A stretch of DNA of 45,219 nt from a virus. Taxonomy: Duplodnaviria; Heunggongvirae; Uroviricota; Caudoviricetes. Position 1 is the first letter of the stretch, and every line of letters starts with the position of its first letter. Below, one piece after another: positions 33,711 to 41,451 of the stretch. Position numbers and translations under genes: made by a program. The notes beneath the pieces were generated by a model. The model made no database searches. It saw only the letters and a list, made by a program, of their open reading frames with translations, and was not told the origin of the DNA. Location of the stretch: positions 1-45,219 of the IMG/VR virus record IMGVR_UViG_2740892444_000003, one strand, 5' to 3'.

Positions 33711-35147
33711 TCAGAATCCTCCTTTCTTCTTGGACTGCGGCTCCTCGCGTTCACGGCGGCGCATTTCAGCAGACTGTTGGTCTGTGTCATAAATAGCGCC
33801 ATTTGCCTGAATGCAATACACCGTGCCGGTATTGCCATGACGATTGAGACGAAGGATTAGTTCAGTTTCACCAGGTGGAACACTGTCATCAAAAGCGCCT
33901 TCACGATGGATCCCGACCCAATAATCGCAATCCTGTTCAATCTGCCCTGTATCCCGTGAGTCACTTGGTAATGGGCGTTTATTGGTTCGGCTTTCCAGTG
34001 CGCGGTTAAGCTGCGTCAGAAGCACAACAACGCAATCAAGCTCTTTGGCAAGGTTCTTCAGTCCTTTGGTGATCATGCCGTAGGCAAGGTCGTTGCGATC
34101 GGCCTTCTCAGCGGTCATTAGTGTCAGGTAATCGACCAGAATCATGCCAACGCATCCTTTTTCTCGCTTGATTCGACGGCTTTCGCTGACGATTTGAGCC
34201 AGAGATAATCCCGGCGTGTCGTCGATGTAAAGCAGGTCGATTTCACTCAAACGATTAGCTGTTTCGATCGCCCTGTTGAAGTCACCATCGTAATCACCCT
34301 GATAGCCGTCATCAGCGTCATTTGTCGCCGGAAGGTAAAAAATATTCGGGTTAACACCTGACTTCTGTCCCACCAGTTTTTCCAGTATCTGGTCACCTGG
34401 CATTTCAAGGCTGAACATCAGAGCGGGCTTTTTCTCATGCACTGCGCAGTTGATTGCCATCTGGCTGTATAGCGTCGTTTTCCCCATCTTAGGGCGAGCG
34501 CCAATGACAAACAGAGAGCCTTTCACCAGACCTTTCGGTGACAGCATCCTGTCCAGCGATGGGATCCCCGTGCTCATTCCTCGTTGTTCGCCTGACGGGT
34601 CAAATCGCTTCTCAAGGTCGCTAACCCAGTCTTCCATGACCTCACCAAATGAGCGAAGGCCGCGACGCGATCCGGTTTTTGCATGGTCTGTCAGTTGCGT
34701 GAAAATCGCCTGAATAGCTTCGTACTTCTGCGTTGCAGTCATTCCGTTGCGGGAATAGAGCAATTCCGTCGCTTCAGTCATGCGGTTTATGGCGTAGCGT
34801 TCCATTGCGGTTTCACGAACCTGCATTGCATAGGCAACGATGTTTGCTGCGCTTGGCGTGTTTTTTGCGATCTCAGCGATATAAGCAAAACCGCCAACAG
34901 ACGCCGTTAACGATTTACGCTCCAGTTCATCGAAAAGCGTCAGGCCATCTACTGGCTTTTGCTCCCGGTGCATTCTGGTTATTTCTTCGAAAAGGATTTT
35001 GTGTGGTCGGCCGTAAAATGAATCAGGCTTCAGCATCGCCAGAACTTTCTGGACGCGCTCACTGCTGTCATCATCCAGAAGCAATCCACCAATCACCGCC
35101 TGCTCTGCCTCGATGCTATGGGGCGGCGCATAAAAATTATCGGTCAT
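33711..35147 (-). CDS. Replicative DNA helicase (DnaB family)
   Basis: Helicase signatures: Walker A GARPKMGKT and conserved DnaB-type blocks; ATG start chosen at MTDNFY (track ORF starts at a GTG at 35162). Confidence 0.8.
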   Translation of the reverse strand: MTDNFYAPPHSIEAEQAVIGGLLLDDDSSERVQKVLAMLKPDSFYGRPHKILFEEITRMHREQKPVDGLTLFDELERKSLTASVGGFAYIAEIAKNTPSAANIVAYAMQVRETAMERYAINRMTEATELLYSRNGMTATQKYEAIQAIFTQLTDHAKTGSRRGLRSFGEVMEDWVSDLEKRFDPSGEQRGMSTGIPSLDRMLSPKGLVKGSLFVIGARPKMGKTTLYSQMAINCAVHEKKPALMFSLEMPGDQILEKLVGQKSGVNPNIFYLPATNDADDGYQGDYDGDFNRAIETANRLSEIDLLYIDDTPGLSLAQIVSESRRIKREKGCVGMILVDYLTLMTAEKADRNDLAYGMITKGLKNLAKELDCVVVLLTQLNRALESRTNKRPLPSDSRDTGQIEQDCDYWVGIHREGAFDDSVPPGETELILRLNRHGNTGTVYCIQANGAIYDTDQQSAEMRRREREEPQSKKKGGF

Positions 35148-36036
35148 CGTGTTCACCCTCACGAACTTTCAGGTAGGTATTGTCGTTAAGCAGGAAATCA
35201 AATCCCTTTTTGTGCCAGACGGTTCCGCGTTGATGGTTTGGACGCTCTTCGAACATCCATCGGCAATTTTCGCCTACGTAGCTCAAATAATTTCTCCAGT
35301 CCTGCATCGTGAACCCATGCCCGTCAAGCTGGCGGGTTATCACTCCGGCTTTGCGCCAGAACGTTCGGATCTGGTTTTTACGCTTGTCATTCAGTGCGCG
35401 GATTCTTGGCGCTTCAGGAAGGATTTCGTGGTAAGCATCAACAACATCCTGACAGCTAACGGAAGGTTTTTTCTTGTCAGACTTTTTGTCTGCTGCGGTA
35501 CTCTCTAATACGTCAGTATTAGAGATAATATTATTATATTCTTTATCTGTGGTAATTTGCTGGTAATCTGCTGGTACAGTATTGCTTGCAGGCATTGGTA
35601 TTGCTGGCTTTGAGGTGGTAATTTGCTGGTAATCTGCTGGTACAAAATTTGACTGATAATCGTCATATTTCTCTACCGAGAAAACTGAGAATTTACCGTG
35701 TGAAACCCAGTCAATCATGCCGAGTTTTTTGAACTTTCTAAGCAGGTACTGAACGCGATCTGGTTTGAGTCCTGTTTCAAACGCCAGAGAGTTTCTACCG
35801 CCAAGTAGCTTCCCTCTGCCTACCAGAATTTCTCCTGCGTCAGTCATTACATACTCAGGCGTATGCTTTGCTTTGAGGATTAAGTGAACCCACAGATGCG
35901 CAGCTTCTGCGTCCTTGTAAAACGGCACATCCATAATTTTACGGTGCAGCAAGGCATACCCCTTACCGCTGCTTTGATGCGGTTGTTGTAGCCTTCTGGC
36001 CTCTCTGGCTTCGGCTAGATTAGATATGTTACTCAT
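35137..36036 (-). CDS. Replication initiation protein (lambda O-like) containing the origin iterons
   Basis: 299-aa ORF upstream of the helicase; encodes the duplicated peptide [10 protein letters not shown] corresponding to DNA iterons. Confidence 0.7.
35521..35644. repeat. Putative origin of replication: two ~30-bp direct repeats built from TGGTAAT(T/C)TGC iterons, adjacent to an AT-rich block
   Basis: GGTAATTTGCTGGTAATCTGCTGGTACA at 35548..35578 and 35614..35644; AT-rich AGAGATAATATTATTATATTCTTTATC at 35521..35547. Confidence 0.6.
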
Positions 36037-36207
36037 GACCTTTCTCCTTCTGCATCAGCTTCACTTTTTCCAACTCAGCCCGGAATCGACCAGGCTGCTT
36101 GAAGCTGGACAGGAAGCGATCACGTAGTATGTGTTTGTGAATTTTGTCCTGGTAAGGACTGAGTTGTTTTGTCATAATGACTCCTGTGGATTGATCCAGT
36201 AATTCCC

Positions 36208-36504
36208 TCAGAATTGCATATCAATTTGCTTAAAATCCTCGGTGGCGGCCGGGGATTTTTTCTTTGTGATTTCATCAAGCGCATACTTAAAAGCCCTGCT
36301 AATCGGACTGATGTCTGATGCCATTCCGAAAGCACACAAGACCGAAGCAATAAATCTCCAGTCCGTTCTGCTTATCTTCGATTCATGACAGCCAATCATC
36401 TTTGCCAGACCGCGCTGGGTAATAGCTGACAGATTGATAAGTAAATCTGTTTCTGCGCGATCAACGTCACGCTGTGATAGTTTGCTGTAACTTGTTCTTT
36501 CCAT
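36208..36504 (-). CDS. cII: CII-like transcriptional activator
   Basis: 98-aa ORF with HTH and C-terminal [18 protein letters not shown] resembling lambda CII (KKRPAATERSEQIQMEF). Confidence 0.7.
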
Positions 36505-36589
36505 TTCTTAAGATTTCCAATAGTGAATAGTTAGTTGAAAGGTATGCGTGGAAACGCATATGGCCTTAGTTGGTCAGATATCTTGGGGC

Positions 36590-36635
36590 TCGCTTTTCAG
36601 CGACGTAGGACGAATGTCCATTGTTACAAAGAGCG
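36590..36635 (-). promoter_or_regulatory. nutR-like site (boxA CGCTCTTTG and boxB hairpin TCGCT-GAAAA-AGCGA)
   Basis: Read on the minus strand between cro and cII; boxB has a 5-bp stem and GAAAA pentaloop like lambda boxB. Confidence 0.55.
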
Positions 36636-36642
36636 GGGTTAC

Positions 36643-36876
36643 TTATGCTGCTGATGCTCTACGCGATACGAACACCAGATTTTCCTTTTTCACAGGTTTA
36701 TAACCCGTGAAATTACGAGTGGCTTCTTCGATTGCATTCGCTTTATCTGGGGAAGCTCTTCGAAACCCATATGCAATCTGATCAAGATAGCCAACTGAAG
36801 TATTCGCTAATGCGGCGAGTCGCTTCCATTCCTCACTAGAAGCCTCTTTTCGCCAGCGTAGTAGTTCATTACTCAT
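36643..36876 (-). CDS. cro: Cro-like repressor (HTH)
   Basis: 77-aa ORF divergent from cI across the operator region; first gene of the rightward early operon. Confidence 0.6.
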   Translation of the reverse strand: MSNELLRWRKEASSEEWKRLAALANTSVGYLDQIAYGFRRASPDKANAIEEATRNFTGYKPVKKENLVFVSRRASAA

Positions 36877-36989
36877 TAGTGCCTCCGTTTATCACACAGA
36901 GCAACTTTACCATTTTGATAAATAAACTGCAATGGAGATTTATCAAAATGCGTATTTATCCATTTGCTAAATAGAGGGAGAATCGTGGG
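36877..36989. promoter_or_regulatory. Divergent immunity promoter/operator region (OR/PR/PRM analogue)
   Basis: 113-bp AT-rich gap between cro and cI with repeated TTTATC(A/C)/GATAAA half-sites, e.g. TTTACCATTTTGATAAA at 36906..36922. Confidence 0.55.
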
Positions 36990-37694
36990 ATGGAAAACAA
37001 AGATATTCGCAAATCGAATCTGGCGTTTTTGCTAGATGAGCATAAAAAAATCGCTGGTAACACTAATGCAAGCTTTGCCGATAAGCTTGGAGTTAGCCCT
37101 TCTCAACTCACGCAAGTCTCCGGTGAAAAAAGCACTCGAAACATAGGGGATAAACTAGCAAGAAAATTCGAAGCCGCACTTGGGTTACCTAATGGGTGGC
37201 TTGATTTGGTACATGATGTAACACCAATTGCATCATGCTCAGATTCTTTAACTTTTGTCGGTCAGGTAAGAAAAGGGTTAGTGCGCGTGGTTGGTGAGGC
37301 AATTCTTGGTGTTGATGGTGCCATCGAGATGACCGAAGAGCGCGATGGGTGGCTCAAGATTTATAGCGATGATCCAGATGCCTTTGGTCTTCGTGTGAAA
37401 GGAGACAGCATGTGGCCTAGAATAAAATCAGGAGAATATGTACTCATTGAGCCTAACACCAAAGTATTCCCGGGTGATGAGGTGTTTGTCAGAACCGTTG
37501 AAGGACACAACATGATCAAAGTTCTTGGCTATGACAGAGACGGAGAATACCAGTTTACAAGCATCAACCAGGACCATAGGCCAATAACGTTGCCTTATCA
37601 TCAAGTAGCAAAGGTGGAGTATGTGGCTGGTATTCTGAAGCAATCTCGCCATCTGGATGACATCGAGGCAAGGGAGTGGCTGAAAAGTTCGTGA
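36990..37694 (+). CDS. cI: CI-like repressor with LexA/S24 autopeptidase domain
   Basis: N-terminal HTH and C-terminal S24 domain (GDSMWPRIKSGEYVLIEP...), divergent from cro. Confidence 0.85.
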   Translation: MENKDIRKSNLAFLLDEHKKIAGNTNASFADKLGVSPSQLTQVSGEKSTRNIGDKLARKFEAALGLPNGWLDLVHDVTPIASCSDSLTFVGQVRKGLVRVVGEAILGVDGAIEMTEERDGWLKIYSDDPDAFGLRVKGDSMWPRIKSGEYVLIEPNTKVFPGDEVFVRTVEGHNMIKVLGYDRDGEYQFTSINQDHRPITLPYHQVAKVEYVAGILKQSRHLDDIEAREWLKSS

Positions 37695-37860
37695 CTTCAT
37701 CGTCACATAGCTGATAGCCAGTGGCCTGAAGAGACGTTTGGGTAATTCCAATTGTTATTTATGAACAGTCAATTCCGCCAGATTGGTGATGATGACAAGC
37801 CGCTATGGCTTAGCTTCAACATGAATACATTCATCGTAACCACAGCAGGGAGTTTAACGA

Positions 37861-38865
37861 ATGAATTCTATTGAAAATCATGATGTTTATGTGTATACAG
37901 GCGATATTCATCGTGATGGTTATCTTGATCTCACCAATGAAATCAAGAAACGTAAGTCACAACATGGATTAAAAGAAAATGTTATCTTCTGTGTTGCTAC
38001 TTATGGCGGTGATCCAAATGCAGGTTATCGTATAGGTAGAGCTCTACAGCACCATTATGAAACGGTAACACTTTTAGTTGTTGGACCATGCAAAAGTGCT
38101 GGTACACTAATAGCTATAGCAGCCAATAAACTTGTTATTGGCGACATGGGGGAGCTTGGACCATTAGATATCCAACTGAAAAAAAACGATGAAATAGGTG
38201 AAATGAGTTCTGGTTTAGCTATCATGACAGCTCTTGATGCTCTAAAGGAACGCTCTATTTCAGCGTTTAACTCACACCTTGTTAAGATAAGGTACGAAAA
38301 TCAGATCAGTACTAAAATGTCTGCTGATATCGCAACCAGACTTACAGAAGCGTTGATAGCACCTATGGCCGCACAGATAGATCCTATAAAGCTTGGTGAA
38401 CATCAGCGCGCAATGAGTATAGCTATCACTTATGGTCAACGATTAGCAGACAAACCAAGCAGCCTAAAAGAAGGGGCGTTAGGCAAACTAATAGCCTCAT
38501 ATCCTTCACATGGATTTGTTATCGACAGAAAAGAAGCCAAGGAACTTTTCAAGTGTGTTGAACATCCTGAAGGCATAACAGAAATACTCTATAATCTTTT
38601 CTGTGACAAAATTCATAGTGGTGAAATTCCAACATTTGGAAAGCCAAGAGTAATGGATTTCACTGTTTCCCAACAAGATAAAGAGGAATACACTAATGCC
38701 GAAGAATCTGCAACCGGAGATGGAAGTTCTCAACAGGATGCTGGAAAGCCAGATCCAGGAAGGTCGCGATCTGGCAAGAAAAGCGGAACAACACCTGAAC
38801 GAGATCAAGAAGGAATTGGAGCCGTATCAATTCAACCACCAGATGAACAGCAACCTAATGCGTGA
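37861..38865 (+). CDS. ClpP-fold serine peptidase (SDH/S49-like) in the rex position
   Basis: Motifs VATYGGDPNAGYRIGRAL and VVGPCKSAGTLIAIAA resemble the oxyanion/active-site Ser region of SDH/SppA/ClpP-clan peptidases; last ~55 codons are Gly/Ser/Pro-rich and overlap another ORF. Confidence 0.55.
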   Translation: MNSIENHDVYVYTGDIHRDGYLDLTNEIKKRKSQHGLKENVIFCVATYGGDPNAGYRIGRALQHHYETVTLLVVGPCKSAGTLIAIAANKLVIGDMGELGPLDIQLKKNDEIGEMSSGLAIMTALDALKERSISAFNSHLVKIRYENQISTKMSADIATRLTEALIAPMAAQIDPIKLGEHQRAMSIAITYGQRLADKPSSLKEGALGKLIASYPSHGFVIDRKEAKELFKCVEHPEGITEILYNLFCDKIHSGEIPTFGKPRVMDFTVSQQDKEEYTNAEESATGDGSSQQDAGKPDPGRSRSGKKSGTTPERDQEGIGAVSIQPPDEQQPNA

Positions 38866-38881
38866 TCTCTTTGCTCTGTAA
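38696..38881 (+). CDS. Small helical protein (61 aa) overlapping the 3' end of the peptidase gene in the +1 frame
   Basis: AAGAGGA RBS 8 nt upstream of ATG 38696; protein-like helical sequence; followed directly by a terminator. Confidence 0.4.
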   Translation: MPKNLQPEMEVLNRMLESQIQEGRDLARKAEQHLNEIKKELEPYQFNHQMNSNLMRDLFAL

Positions 38882-38895
38882 TTAATTCCTCACAT

Positions 38896-38922
38896 CCCGG
38901 CCTCAGCGCCGGGTTTTCTTTG
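38896..38922 (+). terminator. Intrinsic terminator after the cI-peptidase operon
   Basis: CCCGGC-loop-GCCGGG hairpin followed by TTTTCTTTG. Confidence 0.6.
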
Positions 38923-39089
38923 CCTCACGTTCGCCCCAAAACACATAACCAATTGTATTTATTTGAAAATTAACAGATACAACTCACTAAAACGCGCAAT
39001 TCTGATCCCCCTCAAGTCTCTTTATTCCTTCTGATAAATTCCTGCAATCAAATAAAAAACCATAATAATCAACAGGATATTTGAAAACA

Positions 39090-39140
39090 AAAACAATTTA
39101 TCATTTTGCTATTGCCATTAATTTATCATTTCGATAAAGT
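39090..39140 (+). promoter_or_regulatory. Leftward operator/promoter region (OL/PL analogue)
   Basis: 17-bp dyad ATTTATCATTTCGATAAAG (39121..39139) plus another TTTATCA at 39097, same half-site family as the cro-cI region. Confidence 0.5.
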
Positions 39141-39186
39141 TAACTCATCAGCAGGACGCTGGAAGCCAAACGGAACAGACTGGCAG

Positions 39187-39232
39187 GCTCTTTAAACAAC
39201 GTCGAACACTCGACTACGTGGCTGAAAAGCCA
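39187..39232 (+). promoter_or_regulatory. nutL-like site (boxA GCTCTTTAA and boxB hairpin TGGCT-GAAAA-AGCCA)
   Basis: Located ~100 nt upstream of the N-like gene; boxB stem-loop with GAAAA loop mirrors the nutR hairpin. Confidence 0.55.
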
Positions 39233-39330
39233 GATCACCCAACCACATAAGCTGTGGGATGCAATGCCGAAGCAACCGTCTCAGGAGGGGCTTCGAGATT
39301 GCATCGCCAAAGTTTATTCGGGAGGAATCT

Positions 39331-39603
39331 ATGTCCAGAAAAACAGAATTTAAAGGCACCTCAGCTTCTCGCCGTAGAGCTCGTCGCGCAAACCTGCAAA
39401 GTCAGGAGGCGATCAGCTCCGACAAGCTACACAGGCCAACCCCTTCACGAGTGGTCTTGCAATGCAAGCGCAAACCAGCAATGAGAGCAGAAGTGATAAC
39501 TCTGACAACGTTGACCAGAAAATATGAAGGTTCAACTTGTCTTCCGAACGTAGCCATTTACGCGGCAGGCTACAGGAAATCAAAACAACTGACAGCAAGG
39601 TGA
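39331..39603 (+). CDS. N: N-like transcription antiterminator with arginine-rich motif
   Basis: 90-aa basic protein with N-terminal ARM (TSASRRRARRANLQSQ) and GGAGGA RBS; first gene of the leftward operon after nutL. Confidence 0.6.
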   Translation: MSRKTEFKGTSASRRRARRANLQSQEAISSDKLHRPTPSRVVLQCKRKPAMRAEVITLTTLTRKYEGSTCLPNVAIYAAGYRKSKQLTAR

Positions 39604-39666
39604 CTTGTGTTGGTCGCCAGAAACAACGCGGAAAATCAATTCCAGCTTATTACGATTGAGGTAGTC

Positions 39667-39831
39667 ATGCTCAAGAAAGTCAAACGCCGACTTTACAAAG
39701 AAGGTAGATATTCATGTCAATTGCCAAAATGCGACACAACAAAATGGAGTGTCGATGATTGGTGTAACTGGATAGATAGATACGGAACTTGGTGGGAGCG
39801 TATTTATTTTCGCAGCAAACCACTTATTTGA
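39667..39831 (+). CDS. Small Cys/Trp-rich hypothetical protein (54 aa)
   Basis: ATG with GAGG RBS; track ORF begins upstream at a GTG. Confidence 0.35.
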   Translation: MLKKVKRRLYKEGRYSCQLPKCDTTKWSVDDWCNWIDRYGTWWERIYFRSKPLI

Positions 39832-39839
39832 GGTGAGAT

Positions 39840-40091
39840 ATGGAGTTTCATGAAAGTGCGATTTGTGATTTTCGCGCTAACGCAAATTCAGTAAAACCAC
39901 AGCCAATTGCAGTTCTTTTTAAAACAATGGGTGCGTGGGCTGTTTTATGCTTCGCCTCTGATGACACTGACGCAAGAATGGCAATAGGCCAAGAGATGGA
40001 GATGGACCCGACAAACGATGAATTCATAATTTATGGCGCTCCATCTAATTACTTACTTGATACCTGCAACATTTACAACAAGGCTGCCTGA
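39840..40091 (+). CDS. Hypothetical protein (83 aa)
   Basis: ATG with GAGGTGAG RBS; early-left operon. Confidence 0.4.
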   Translation: MEFHESAICDFRANANSVKPQPIAVLFKTMGAWAVLCFASDDTDARMAIGQEMEMDPTNDEFIIYGAPSNYLLDTCNIYNKAA

Positions 40092-40227
40092 TGGTGGCCT
40101 TCATTTTTGGCATAAACAACAGAATAAACACTGCACTGTGTATTCATTCCAACGAGTGAATACACGGAGCAATGTCGCTCGTAACTAAACAGGAGCCGAC
40201 TTGTTCTGATTATTGGAAATCTTCTTT

Positions 40228-40252
40228 GCCCTCCAATGTGAGGGCTTTTTTA
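40228..40252 (+). terminator. Intrinsic terminator within the early-left operon (tL1-like)
   Basis: GCCCTC-CAATGT-GAGGGC hairpin followed by TTTTTT. Confidence 0.65.
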
Positions 40253-40317
40253 TATGCATACCAATAACGCTTCAATTGAGGCGTTTTCGTTATGCAATCA
40301 AACAGAAGGAGTTACCC

Positions 40318-40452
40318 ATGATGCACTTTCAGTTCGCGGGTAGCGGCGTCATGTCCGCTTTCTACCCGCACGAATCTGAATTATCACGCCGAGTTAAACA
40401 ATTAATCAGAGCAGCAAAGAAACAACTGGAGGCGTTATGCGCAATGAAATAG
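40318..40452 (+). CDS. cIII: CIII-like protein (44 aa)
   Basis: PHESELSRRVKQLIRAAKKQL resembles the amphipathic helix of lambda CIII (PSESLLERITRKLRDGWKRL). Confidence 0.5.
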   Translation: MMHFQFAGSGVMSAFYPHESELSRRVKQLIRAAKKQLEALCAMK

Positions 40453-40589
40453 CCATCAATCACCAGGTGCTTCGTGCAGCACAAAACAAAGCAGTAATAG
40501 CCAGATTTATTGGTGATTCCAAAATGTGGCTTGAAGCAAATAAAGCGATGAAATCAGCTATCAACCTTCCATGGTATCGCAGGAAATGA
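40437..40589 (+). CDS. Small hypothetical protein (50 aa)
   Basis: Hand-translated (below the track's 60-aa threshold): GGAGG RBS, ATG 40437, MRNEIAINHQVLRAAQNKAVIARF... Confidence 0.3.
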   Translation: MRNEIAINHQVLRAAQNKAVIARFIGDSKMWLEANKAMKSAINLPWYRRK

Positions 40590-40756
40590 GTTTTACAGAT
40601 AACTGGTCAGACGAAGAATTCATTCGTCAGATGAAAGAATTAATCGGTAACGAAGGAGATATTCATGTTACTTGCAACCACAGTGAAGGAGAGCAAGTTA
40701 CAGAGGCGCATGTACACGCAGCAGGCGTTAATGTATCGCCAGAAGGGAGATCGTGA
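40586..40756 (+). CDS. Small hypothetical protein (56 aa)
   Basis: ATG overlapping the upstream stop (ATGA); track ORF begins at 40571. Confidence 0.3.
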   Translation: MSFTDNWSDEEFIRQMKELIGNEGDIHVTCNHSEGEQVTEAHVHAAGVNVSPEGRS

Positions 40757-40845
40757 AGGTGTTCGCGTATTTTTAAATGCGGCAAAGACTGAAGTATTAA
40801 ATCAGCGTTATTTACTTGGGCCGTGTCCATTCTGAGAACAATCAT

Positions 40846-41451
40846 ATGAGCAAAGAATTTTACGCAAGACTGGCAGCTATTCAGGAGAATCTGAACGCGC
40901 CAAAGAATCAGTACAACTCATTCGGTAAATATAAATACAGAAGCTGCGAAGACATTCTTGAAGGCGTTAAGCCGTTACTGAATGGCCTGTTTTTATCAAT
41001 CAGCGATGAAGTTGTGTTGATTGGTGATCGGTATTACGTGAAAGCCACGGCAACTATTACCGATGGCGAAAACAGTCATACAGCAACCGCTCTTGCACGA
41101 GAGGAAGAAAGCAAGAAAGGAATGGATTCTGCACAAGTTACGGGCGCTACAAGCTCTTATGCACGCAAGTATTGCCTCAATGGTTTGTTCGGCATTGATG
41201 ATGCGAAAGATGCAGATACCGACGAGCATAAACATCAGCAGAACGCAGCAGCAAAGCAATCAAAACCATCACCTACACCTGAACAGGTTCTAAAAGCATT
41301 CACTGACGCAGCAATGCAGAAAAACACCGTAGAAGAGCTTAAACAGGCGTTCGCCAAAGCGTGGAAGATGCTCGAAGGCACACCGGAGCAGCACAAAGCG
41401 CAGGACGTTTACAACATCAGACGAGACGAATTAGAAGGGGCAACTGCTTAA
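40846..41451 (+). CDS. erf: Erf-family single-strand annealing recombinase
   Basis: N-terminus MSKEFYARLAAIQENLNAPKNQYNSFGKYKYRSCEDILEGVKPLL recognised as P22 Erf-like. Confidence 0.75.
   Translation: MSKEFYARLAAIQENLNAPKNQYNSFGKYKYRSCEDILEGVKPLLNGLFLSISDEVVLIGDRYYVKATATITDGENSHTATALAREEESKKGMDSAQVTGATSSYARKYCLNGLFGIDDAKDADTDEHKHQQNAAAKQSKPSPTPEQVLKAFTDAAMQKNTVEELKQAFAKAWKMLEGTPEQHKAQDVYNIRRDELEGATA

What the first reader, a model, noticed from the sequence alone, without database searches (positions are those of the whole stretch)
36590..39603. Complete N/nut antitermination circuit with GAAAA-loop boxB hairpins on both arms
A boxA-like CGCTCTTTG/GCTCTTTAA element plus a 5-bp-stem boxB hairpin with a GAAAA loop occurs downstream of cro (nutR, 36590..36635) and upstream of the N-like gene (nutL, 39187..39232). 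The N-like protein carries an arginine-rich motif. The sites were identified by direct inspection and mirror lambda nut architecture, although the stem sequences differ from lambda.
Basis: partly seen in the sequence, partly recalled or inferred. Interest (0 to 1): 0.45.

Follow-up and report, generated by a model that had tools for sequence, protein, structure and literature searches.

The report
N antiterminator with tetraloop nut sites
This is a genuine but ordinary lambda-style N/nut transcription antitermination module of an E. coli prophage, nearly identical to that of the Shiga-toxin phage VT2-Sakai; its one unusual detail is that the N-binding RNA hairpins carry a four-base GAAA loop, not the five-base loop of the studied phages.

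Summary
The sites are real. A boxA, spacer hairpin, UACG and boxB unit occurs exactly twice in 45 kb. One copy lies downstream of cro (36590-36635, minus strand). The other lies between pL and an N gene (39186-39232, plus strand). A covariance model scores them 68.5 and 63.5 bits; the next best hit scores 9.7.

The protein at 39331-39603 matches Pfam N_peptide (E 2.3e-31). It is 97.8% identical to VT2-Sakai N and 41-43% identical to H-19B/933W N.

One correction: a 5-bp stem leaves a GAAA tetraloop (5+4+5 = 14 nt), not a GAAAA pentaloop.

Both hairpins are conserved with compensatory changes in loci encoding nine other N proteins (53-98% identical): 95% of cells paired, 7 of 10 pairs co-varying.

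Loop type tracks the arginine-rich motif (ARM):
- 109 of 115 viral contigs with the tetraloop motif encode the RRRxRRAxLQ motif.
- 65 of 65 contigs with the GACAA motif encode the H-19B motif.

The window is a mosaic of H-19B-like cI/cro/operators with Sakai-type N, nutL and nutR.

This is a member of a known system and is common in E. coli. Its tetraloop boxB class appears uncharacterised. Antitermination activity itself is inferred, not tested.

The parts
39331..39603 (+). N antiterminator gene (90 aa), with ARM SRRRARRANLQSQE at residues 13-26 and C-terminus CLPNVAIYAAGYRKSKQLTAR
   Evidence: Pfam PF25694 E 2.3e-31. PHROG 271. 97.8% identical to VT2-Sakai N. The start at 39331 is favoured by the Shine-Dalgarno sequence GGGAGG and by the conserved MSRKTEF/MTRRTQF N-termini.
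39186..39232 (+). nutL: boxA 39186-39199, spacer hairpin 39201-39214, UACG 39215-39218, boxB 39219-39232 (GAAA loop at 39224-39227)
   Evidence: 68.5 bits. Conserved with covariation.
36590..36635 (-). nutR: boxA 36635-36621, spacer hairpin 36619-36608, UACG 36607-36604, boxB 36603-36590 (GAAA loop at 36598-36595)
   Evidence: 63.5 bits. Differs by two bases over the 52-nt unit from VT2-Sakai nutR.
39112..39140 (+). pL candidate (TTGCCA-17-TAAAGT) overlapping the OL operator TTTATCATTTCGATAAA at 39122-39138
   Evidence: The region is 84% identical to H-19B OL/pL.
36903..36931 (-). pR candidate (-35 TTGCAG at 36931-36926, 17-nt spacer, -10 TAAAGT at 36908-36903) among the OR operators at 36888-36904, 36906-36922 and 36955-36971
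   Evidence: Read directly from the sequence. Operator pattern hits. The scanner did not list it.
36643..36876 (-). cro (77 aa), first gene of the pR transcript
   Evidence: 96% DNA identity to the H-19B cII-cro-cI block. PHROG 35 transcriptional repressor.
36990..37694 (+). cI repressor (234 aa, S24 peptidase domain)
   Evidence: Pfam PF00717. H-19B-like.
36505..36589 (-). tR1-equivalent region between nutR and cII, the presumed Rho-dependent termination zone that N must override
   Evidence: Differs at only three positions from H-19B nutR/tR1, which served as a Rho-dependent terminator template in PMC3526286. Assigned by homology only.
36208..36504 (-). cII, the first gene whose expression depends on readthrough of tR1
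   Evidence: Pfam PF05269 E 4.9e-31.
40228..40252 (+). Intrinsic terminator downstream of N (tL1-like): GCCCTC-6-GAGGGC followed by TTTTTT
   Evidence: Conserved in VT2-Sakai and H-19B at 97.5-98%.
39247..39317 (+). Long N-leader hairpin between boxB and the N ribosome-binding site
   Evidence: The leader folds with z = -5.3. The base of the stem is conserved, with 6 compensatory pairs in 10 loci. Its function is inferred by analogy with the lambda N-leader RNase III site.

Best explanation
This is the early-gene antitermination module of a lambdoid E. coli prophage whose map runs inverted in the window.

Proposed mechanism:
1. After repressor loss, pL (plus strand) and pR (minus strand) fire.
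2. Each transcript soon contains a nut site made of boxA, a small spacer hairpin, UACG and a boxB hairpin.
3. N is translated from the pL transcript.
4. [quoted passage not shown]
5. Its conserved C-terminus (CLPNVAIYAAGYRKSKQLTAR) engages RNA polymerase, and its middle region (similar to lambda N residues 34-47) plausibly engages NusA.
6. The modified polymerase reads through the Rho-dependent tR1 zone into cII, O and the DnaB-like replication gene, and through the intrinsic terminator at 40228 into the leftward early genes.

Shown here: the parts, their placement, their conservation and covariation, and a strict pairing of ARM type with loop type.

Inferred: binding, Nus-factor use and readthrough.

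The module belongs to the VT2-Sakai specificity class. That class differs from its sister H-19B/933W class by one loop nucleotide (GAAA against GACAA) and by a different ARM.
For: Protein: Pfam N_peptide E 2.3e-31. 97.8% identical to VT2-Sakai N. 43% identical to H-19B N, sharing the ends but not the ARM. 34% identical to lambda N over residues 13-61, covering the ARM and the adjacent region.

Sites: only two in the window, far above background.

Conservation: every locus fetched through the nine other N proteins of this ARM type (53-98% identical to the window's) has a tetraloop boxB on both arms, where the contig reaches that far. The loops are GAAA, or GCAA in one nutR.

Covariation on 17 distinct nut sequences: 95.3% of cells paired, 7 of 10 pairs with a change on both sides, 0 of 500 shuffles as good, and the signal collapses when partners are slid.

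Specificity coupling:
- 109 of 115 viral contigs found through the tetraloop nutL motif encode an RRR.[RQH]R[ASL]..[LVM]Q ARM just downstream.
- 83 of the 120 contigs retrieved also show a tetraloop nutR, and none shows a pentaloop nutR.
- 65 of 65 contigs found through the GACAA motif that have an N downstream encode the H-19B ARM.
- L022 has an H-19B-like nutL leader and N body, but a Sakai-like ARM and a GAAA boxB.

Context: operators and promoters lie upstream of both sites, and terminators lie downstream. tR1 differs at only three positions from the experimentally used H-19B nutR/tR1.
Against: - No functional data exist for this N class in anything I could find.
- The closing U-A pair and the C-G pair next to it never vary, so covariation cannot separate a 5-bp stem with a tetraloop from a 4-bp stem with a UGAAAA hexaloop.
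- boxB hairpins in relatives were collected by requiring perfect 5-bp complementarity, which biases helix 2. Helix 1, the spacer hairpin, was not selected that way.
- The minimum-free-energy fold of the whole 61-nt nut RNA prefers a boxA:boxB pairing over the boxB hairpin.
- The tR1 assignment rests on homology only.
- pR was read by eye and was not called by the scanner.
Confidence: 0.85

Rival explanations
1. The boxB is not a tetraloop in the complex. The closing U-A opens, so N sees a 4-bp stem with a UGAAAA hexaloop or a lambda-like GAAAA pentaloop register. The recognition mode would then be that of lambda rather than a distinct one.
For: The U-A pair is invariant in 17 of 17 sequences, so it has no covariation support. 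The ARM core RRRxRRAxxQxQ resembles lambda's. phi21 N uses a hexaloop (PMC12550061).
Against: Folding predicts 5 bp plus GAAA for both sites. In lambda the homologous closing U-A pair is required for high-affinity binding (PMC12027372). The homologous H-19B site is U-GACAA-A, so the loop between the same U and A is one base shorter here. The natural variant is GCAA, still GNRA. No register with a GAAAA loop leaves more than scattered pairs.
Confidence: 0.12
2. The N-like protein acts as a Nun-like exclusion or termination factor, or only as a translational autoregulator at nutL, and not as an antiterminator.
For: Nun of HK022 also binds boxB through an ARM and sits at the N position (established knowledge). 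A conserved leader hairpin next to nutL is compatible with autoregulation.
Against: The C-terminal 21 residues are almost identical to those of H-19B N and of P22-type N proteins. H-19B N is an experimentally shown antiterminator (PMC3526286). A second cognate site sits downstream of cro, ahead of the terminator zone and the replication genes. That is where an antiterminator is needed and an autoregulator is not.
Confidence: 0.03
3. The nut RNA works as a switch. boxA (GCUCUUU) pairs with the 3' half of boxB (GAAAAGC), and this alternative fold, not the simple boxB hairpin, is the regulated structure.
For: The minimum-free-energy folds of both 61-nt sites use this pairing. 85% of cells pair across the 17 sequences. 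The title of Neely and Friedman (2000) on H-19B refers to 'alternative NUT RNA structures'; it is cited in PMC3526286, and I could not read it.
Against: There is almost no covariation: 1 pair, a score of 0.075, close to the slid controls. The complementarity follows from two independently conserved motifs. L022 nutL and H-19B nutL lack a boxA yet keep boxB.
Confidence: 0.1
4. The two hairpin units are chance or generic structures, such as Rho or RNase sites, unrelated to the N-like ORF.
For: None beyond the small size of the hairpins.
Against: and the two-way association of ARM type with loop type.
Confidence: 0.01

Closest known systems
VT2-Sakai (Stx2 phage Sp5 of E. coli O157:H7 Sakai) N gene and flanking nut regions
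   Same: N is 97.8% identical. nutR differs by two bases over the 52-nt unit, and nutL differs by two or three bases in the spacer-hairpin loop. O, cII and tR1 are 98% identical.
   Different: The immunity region differs: the window's cI, cro and operators are H-19B-like. The Sakai record annotates N as 'N-like' from an upstream ATG, and no nut feature is listed in the fetched region. I found no functional study.
Phage H-19B (and 933W) N with nutL and nutR
   Same: Homologous two-hairpin nut sites (spacer hairpin, UACG, 5-bp boxB) at the same map positions. Model R1 hits them at 53 and 35 bits. The nutR stem UCGCU/AGCGA is identical. The tR1 differs at only three positions. The N termini are the same. 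[quoted passage not shown]
   Different: The H-19B loop is a GACAA pentaloop, and its ARM is RRRERLKAKALANGVLAR with 7 extra residues. N is 127 aa against 90 aa. The H-19B nutR boxA is CGCUAUUUUCACAA, and its nutL has no boxA.
Phage lambda N with nutL and nutR
   Same: Same map logic: pL-nutL-N and pR-cro-nutR-tR1-cII. boxA is CGCUCUU. boxB is a 5-bp stem closed by U-A with a G..A purine-rich loop. The ARM core TRRRERRAEKQAQ aligns with SRRRARRANLQSQ. The proteins are 34% identical over residues 13-61.
   Different: Lambda boxB has GAAAA and GAAGA pentaloops with the fourth base extruded (PMC12027372). It has no spacer hairpin. Trp18 of lambda N corresponds to Glu here. The C-terminal halves are unrelated. 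R1 does not hit the lambda nut sites.
Phage P22 gp24 (N) with boxB
   Same: Same Pfam family and same C-terminus (P0055 and L005 proteins).
   Different: The P22 ARM is GNAKTRRHERRRKLAIERD, and its loop is a GACAA pentaloop with the third base extruded (PMC12550061).

Membership tests
Lambdoid N/nut processive antitermination system | Small N protein with an N-terminal arginine-rich motif | tested here: met
   Pfam PF25694 E 2.3e-31. SRRRARRA at residues 13-20. The ARM aligns with that of lambda N.
Lambdoid N/nut processive antitermination system | A boxB hairpin on each early transcript, downstream of pL and of pR/cro, in the sense orientation | tested here: met
   Promoter and operator context.
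Lambdoid N/nut processive antitermination system | boxA (GCUCUU-type) 5' of boxB | tested here: met
   CGCUCUUUG in nutR and GGCUCUUUA in nutL, against lambda CGCUCUUA. Binding of NusB/NusE was not tested.
Lambdoid N/nut processive antitermination system | Terminators downstream of the nut sites that gate delayed-early genes | tested here: inconclusive
   An intrinsic terminator at 40228-40245 is found. tR1 is assigned only by near-identity to the H-19B nutR/tR1 region.
Lambdoid N/nut processive antitermination system | N- and Nus-dependent readthrough | not testable with these tools
   Needs reporter or in vitro transcription assays.
Lambda/P22-type boxB (GNRA-like pentaloop with one extruded base) | Five-nucleotide loop, GNRNA or GNNRA | tested here: not met
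   The loop is 4 nt, GAAA (GCAA in one relative), in all 17 distinct nut sequences from the loci fetched through N homologues. All 83 nutR sites detected among the tetraloop-motif viral contigs also had 4-nt loops.
Lambda/P22-type boxB (GNRA-like pentaloop with one extruded base) | G at the first and A at the last loop position, purine at the stacking position, closing U-A pair | tested here: met
   U-GAAA-A in both sites.
H-19B-type two-hairpin nut site | Spacer hairpin, then UACG, then a 5-bp boxB | tested here: met
   the spacer helix has 4 of 5 pairs with compensatory changes; homology to the H-19B sites.
H-19B-type two-hairpin nut site | GACAA loop with the cognate RRRERLKAKALANG ARM | tested here: not met
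VT2-Sakai-type N specificity class (defined here) | ARM RRR-x-[RQH]R[AS]-x-[LVM]Q together with a GNRA-tetraloop boxB on both arms | tested here: met

The most novel reading that the evidence does not exclude
The VT2-Sakai class of N proteins, to which this one belongs, recognises a true GNRA tetraloop boxB with no extruded base. That would be a fourth natural N-boxB recognition mode, beside the lambda pentaloop (base 4 out), the P22/H-19B pentaloop (base 3 out) and the phi21 hexaloop. It would use a lambda-like ARM that lacks the stacking tryptophan. Specificity against the co-circulating H-19B/933W class would be set by a single loop nucleotide plus an ARM swap. Because lambda's extruded base has been linked to NusA recruitment (established knowledge, not tested here), such a complex might assemble with different host-factor needs.
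Probability: 0.5. Interest if true: 0.5.

Novelty: new member of a known kind. Interest (0 to 1): 0.3.

Why it matters
As found, this is a correct annotation of a standard lambdoid early-regulation module. It is useful for mapping the prophage's transcription units but not surprising.

The modest added value is a natural experiment. Two sister N classes carried by Shiga-toxin phages (Sakai-type and 933W/H-19B-type) share nut scaffolds that differ by one loop base and an ARM cassette. The loop/ARM pairing was kept in every locus examined, including mosaics such as this window: H-19B-like immunity with Sakai-type N, nutL and nutR.

This gives a compact system for studying how ARM-RNA specificity evolves and how recombination keeps three separated parts matched. 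It would also supply an orthogonal N-peptide/boxB tethering pair if binding proves specific.

Tried and rejected
- Rfam (E up to 10, 35500-41000) gave only three chance-level hits near 36172-36291 and nothing at the nut sites. No match for nut or boxB reached even this lax threshold.
- A PDB sequence search with N found nothing. The solved N peptides are too short or too divergent.
- NCBIfam has no model that hits this N.
- The genome-contig scan with the N alignment returned only 11 loci. Most were other N types, so diverged relatives were fetched through the look-up of encoding contigs instead.
- My first pattern for the sites had the wrong spacing and found nothing. It was corrected.
- The first MAFFT alignment, which included H-19B nutL, misplaced the loop insertion. 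It was redone without the H-19B sequences.
- The boxA:boxB alternative pairing was tested and set aside for lack of covariation.
- Four literature searches found no description of a tetraloop boxB or of the VT2-Sakai nut sites. The held library lacks most subscription papers, including Neely and Friedman (2000), so absence there is weak evidence.
- PADLOC found nothing for the protease-like neighbour.
Full report
**What is in the window**

Positions 33.7-41.5 kb are the early region of a lambdoid prophage, with the map inverted relative to the usual lambda drawing.

On the minus strand lie:
- a DnaB-like gene (33711-35162)
- an O-like gene (35137-36036)
- cII (36208-36504, Pfam Phage_CII E 4.9e-31)
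- cro (36643-36876)

On the plus strand lie:
- cI (36990-37694, S24 peptidase domain)
- a ClpP/SDH-like protease ORF (37861-38865)
- a terminator (38896-38913)
- a promoter/operator cluster
- a 90-codon ORF at 39331-39603

The 90-codon ORF matches Pfam PF25694 'Transcriptional antitermination N peptide' over its whole length (E 2.3e-31). It also matches PHROG 271.

**Checking the observation**

On the minus strand downstream of cro, nutR reads CGCUCUUUGUAACAA-u-GGACauucGUCC-UACG-UCGCU-GAAA-AGCGA (36635-36590). On the plus strand between pL and N, nutL reads GGCUCUUUAAACAA-c-GUCGAacacUCGAC-UACG-UGGCU-GAAA-AGCCA (39186-39232).

Two independent patterns each hit exactly these two places, against 0.02 and 0.00 expected by chance. 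A covariance model built from 17 related nut sequences, with filters off over all 45 kb, scores them 68.5 and 63.5 bits. The next hit scores 9.7 bits. The window's own two sites were part of the training set.

Each isolated boxB folds as five pairs plus a four-base loop. The hairpins are 14 nt, and a 5-bp stem therefore encloses GAAA, not GAAAA.

**Relatives**

The N protein is 97.8% identical to N of the Stx2 phage VT2-Sakai. It is only 41-43% identical to N of H-19B and 933W.

The window is a mosaic:
- 35384-36636 (O, cII, tR1, nutR) is 98% identical to VT2-Sakai.
- 36168-37746 (cII, nutR, cro, OR, cI) is 96% identical to H-19B.
- The OL/pL block is H-19B-like.
- The sequence from just after pL through N is Sakai-like.

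The Sakai match stops at 36636. That falls in the six bases between the cro stop codon and boxA.

At the homologous place, H-19B nutR has the same stem but a GACAA loop and a different boxA. H-19B nutL likewise carries GCGCU-GACAA-AGCGC. The model hits both H-19B sites with a one-base insertion in the loop. It does not hit the lambda nut sites.

The same arrangement occurs in about 15 complete E. coli genomes at 80% coverage or more. The 101-nt nutR stretch matches in 1040 of 5426 genomes, a count that includes 90-95% identical variants.

**Conservation and covariation**

I fetched loci encoding nine other N proteins of the same ARM type, 53-98% identical to the window's. They come from E. coli, Cronobacter and metagenomic contigs.

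Each has the cII-cro-cI-N layout. Each has both a nutL and a nutR of the same design wherever the contig extends that far.

Stem variants are compensatory:
- boxB: UGGCU/AGCCA, AGGCU/AGCCU, UCGCU/AGCGA, UCACU/AGUGA, and later UAGCU/AGCUA
- spacer hairpin: GUCGA/UCGAC, GGUGA/UCACC, GGAC/GUCC, GAUUC/GAAUC

The loop is GAAA, or GCAA in one nutR, which is still GNRA.

On the 17 distinct sequences, 95.3% of cells pair and 7 of 10 pairs show changes on both sides. None of 500 shuffles reaches this, and sliding the partners abolishes the signal.

Two caveats apply. The boxB hairpins were collected by requiring perfect complementarity, whereas the spacer helix was not. The closing U-A pair and the C-G pair next to it never vary, so covariation says nothing about them.

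**Coupling of ARM and loop**

The ARM of this class is RRR-x-RRA-x-LQS-x-E. H-19B has RRRERLKAKALANGVLAR.

Starting from the RNA side, I retrieved 120 viral contigs containing TACG-N-GGCTGAAAAGCC. Of the 115 with enough downstream sequence, 109 encode an ORF with the Sakai-type ARM directly downstream.

Among the 120, 83 also show a tetraloop nutR on the opposite strand. None shows a pentaloop nutR. Most of the rest are truncated contigs.

Of 120 contigs containing TACG-NN-GCTGACAAAGC, 65 have an N gene downstream. All 65 carry the H-19B-type ARM.

Locus L022 is especially telling. Its nutL leader and N body are H-19B/933W-like, but its ARM is Sakai-like and its boxB is AGGCU-GAAA-AGCCU. Loop length and ARM therefore travel together, as expected for a cognate RNA-peptide pair.

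**Comparison with lambda**

Lambda N and its nut sites were read from NC_001416.

The ARM cores align: lambda TRRRERRAEKQAQW against window SRRRARRANLQSQE. Lambda's Trp18 corresponds to Glu here.

BLASTP extends the similarity through residues 13-61 (34% identity, E 1e-4 for the single comparison). This covers the lambda segment known from the literature to bind NusA. That part is inference.

The C-terminal 21 residues are instead those of the P22/H-19B family.

Lambda boxB has GAAAA and GAAGA pentaloops that fold as a GNRA tetraloop with one base extruded. P22 uses GACAA with a different base extruded. phi21 uses a CUAACC hexaloop (PMC12027372; PMC12550061). The H-19B nutR is described as having two hairpins (PMC3526286).

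I found no paper describing a natural four-base boxB loop or the VT2-Sakai nut sites. The searchable library omits most subscription journals, so this is weak evidence of novelty.

**Mechanism**

The best-supported reading is standard N antitermination:
1. Transcripts start from pL (TTGCCA-17-TAAAGT, 39112-39140, overlapping a perfect TTTATC-N5-GATAAA operator). They also start from pR (TTGCAG-17-TAAAGT, 36931-36903, among three operator-like sites) (pR was read by eye).
2. Each transcript acquires a nut RNA.
3. N binds boxB, and the complex renders polymerase resistant to termination.
4. On the pR side, polymerase passes the tR1 zone ahead of cII, which differs at only three positions from the experimentally used Rho-dependent H-19B nutR/tR1.
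5. On the pL side, it passes the intrinsic terminator at 40228-40245, which is conserved in both Sakai and H-19B.

The parts, their order, their conservation and the ARM-loop pairing are shown. Binding, Nus dependence and readthrough are inferred.

**Rivals**

- A hexaloop or pentaloop register cannot be excluded by covariation. Folding, the required closing U-A pair in lambda, and the one-base difference from H-19B between the same U and A all argue against it.
- A Nun-like or purely autoregulatory role is unlikely, given the H-19B-type C-terminus and the second site ahead of tR1.
- A boxA:boxB alternative helix is favoured by minimum-free-energy folding of the whole site. It has essentially no covariation.

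**Verdict**

The element is a member of a well-known system, and its sequence is already present in many genomes, including a famous Stx2 phage.

The one point of interest beyond routine annotation is the tetraloop boxB class and its strict pairing with a lambda-like, Trp-less ARM. That class appears uncharacterised and is easy to test.

Noticed in passing
window 37861-38865 (+), terminator 38896-38913: A 334-aa ClpP/SDH-like serine protease ORF sits between cI and pL, where lambda carries rexAB. It has weak Pfam SDH_protease and CLP_protease hits, a full-length match to PHROG 21683 (function unknown) and no PADLOC hit. It may be a lysogen-expressed moron or exclusion gene.
   Followed up: partly
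window 39247-39317 (+): A long hairpin lies in the N leader between boxB and the N ribosome-binding site. The leader folds with z = -5.3. The base of the stem is conserved, with 6 compensatory pairs across Sakai-type and H-19B-type loci. Its position matches the RNase III-processed N-leader stem of lambda.
   Followed up: partly
window 36232-36259 (+): A strong terminator-like hairpin (12 pairs followed by a T-run) lies on the plus strand inside the 3' end of the minus-strand cII gene. This is the position and orientation expected for the terminator of an oop-like antisense RNA. The only Rfam matches there were chance-level.
   Followed up: no
window 36593-36634 (-) and 39187-39230 (+): boxA GCUCUUU is complementary, with one mismatch, to the boxB 3' half GAAAAGC. 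The minimum-free-energy fold of each whole nut site uses this pairing instead of the boxB hairpin. Across relatives 85% of cells pair, but without covariation.
   Followed up: yes
window 36636/36637 and about 39160: Mosaic joints bracket the immunity region. VT2-Sakai identity ends within the six bases between the cro stop codon and nutR boxA, and it resumes just after pL. An H-19B-like immunity cassette is thus flanked by Sakai-type nutR on one side and Sakai-type nutL and N on the other.
   Followed up: yes
window 39259-39330; L001 3929-4000: The VT2-Sakai record annotates N as 114 aa from an upstream ATG, equivalent to window 39259. That extension overlaps the leader hairpin. The conserved MSRKTEF/MTRRTQF N-termini and the GGGAGG Shine-Dalgarno sequence favour the 90-aa start at 39331.
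   Followed up: partly
L008 4893-5165 (Winslowiella arboricola): This N homologue has a lambda-like N-terminus (MNAQEKRRKARAEKQAAWKQANPLSVGVKAKPV, including the Trp). It is joined to the P22/H-19B-type C-terminus CLPQVAIYAAGHRKSENVTAR. It links lambda N to the PF25694 family by domain shuffling.
   Followed up: no
window 36029-36175 (-): A 48-aa ORF lies between cII and O. It matches PHROG 1913, labelled 'tail protein'. Relatives at this position carry DUF2740. The 'tail' label looks like a misannotation for an early-region gene.
   Followed up: no
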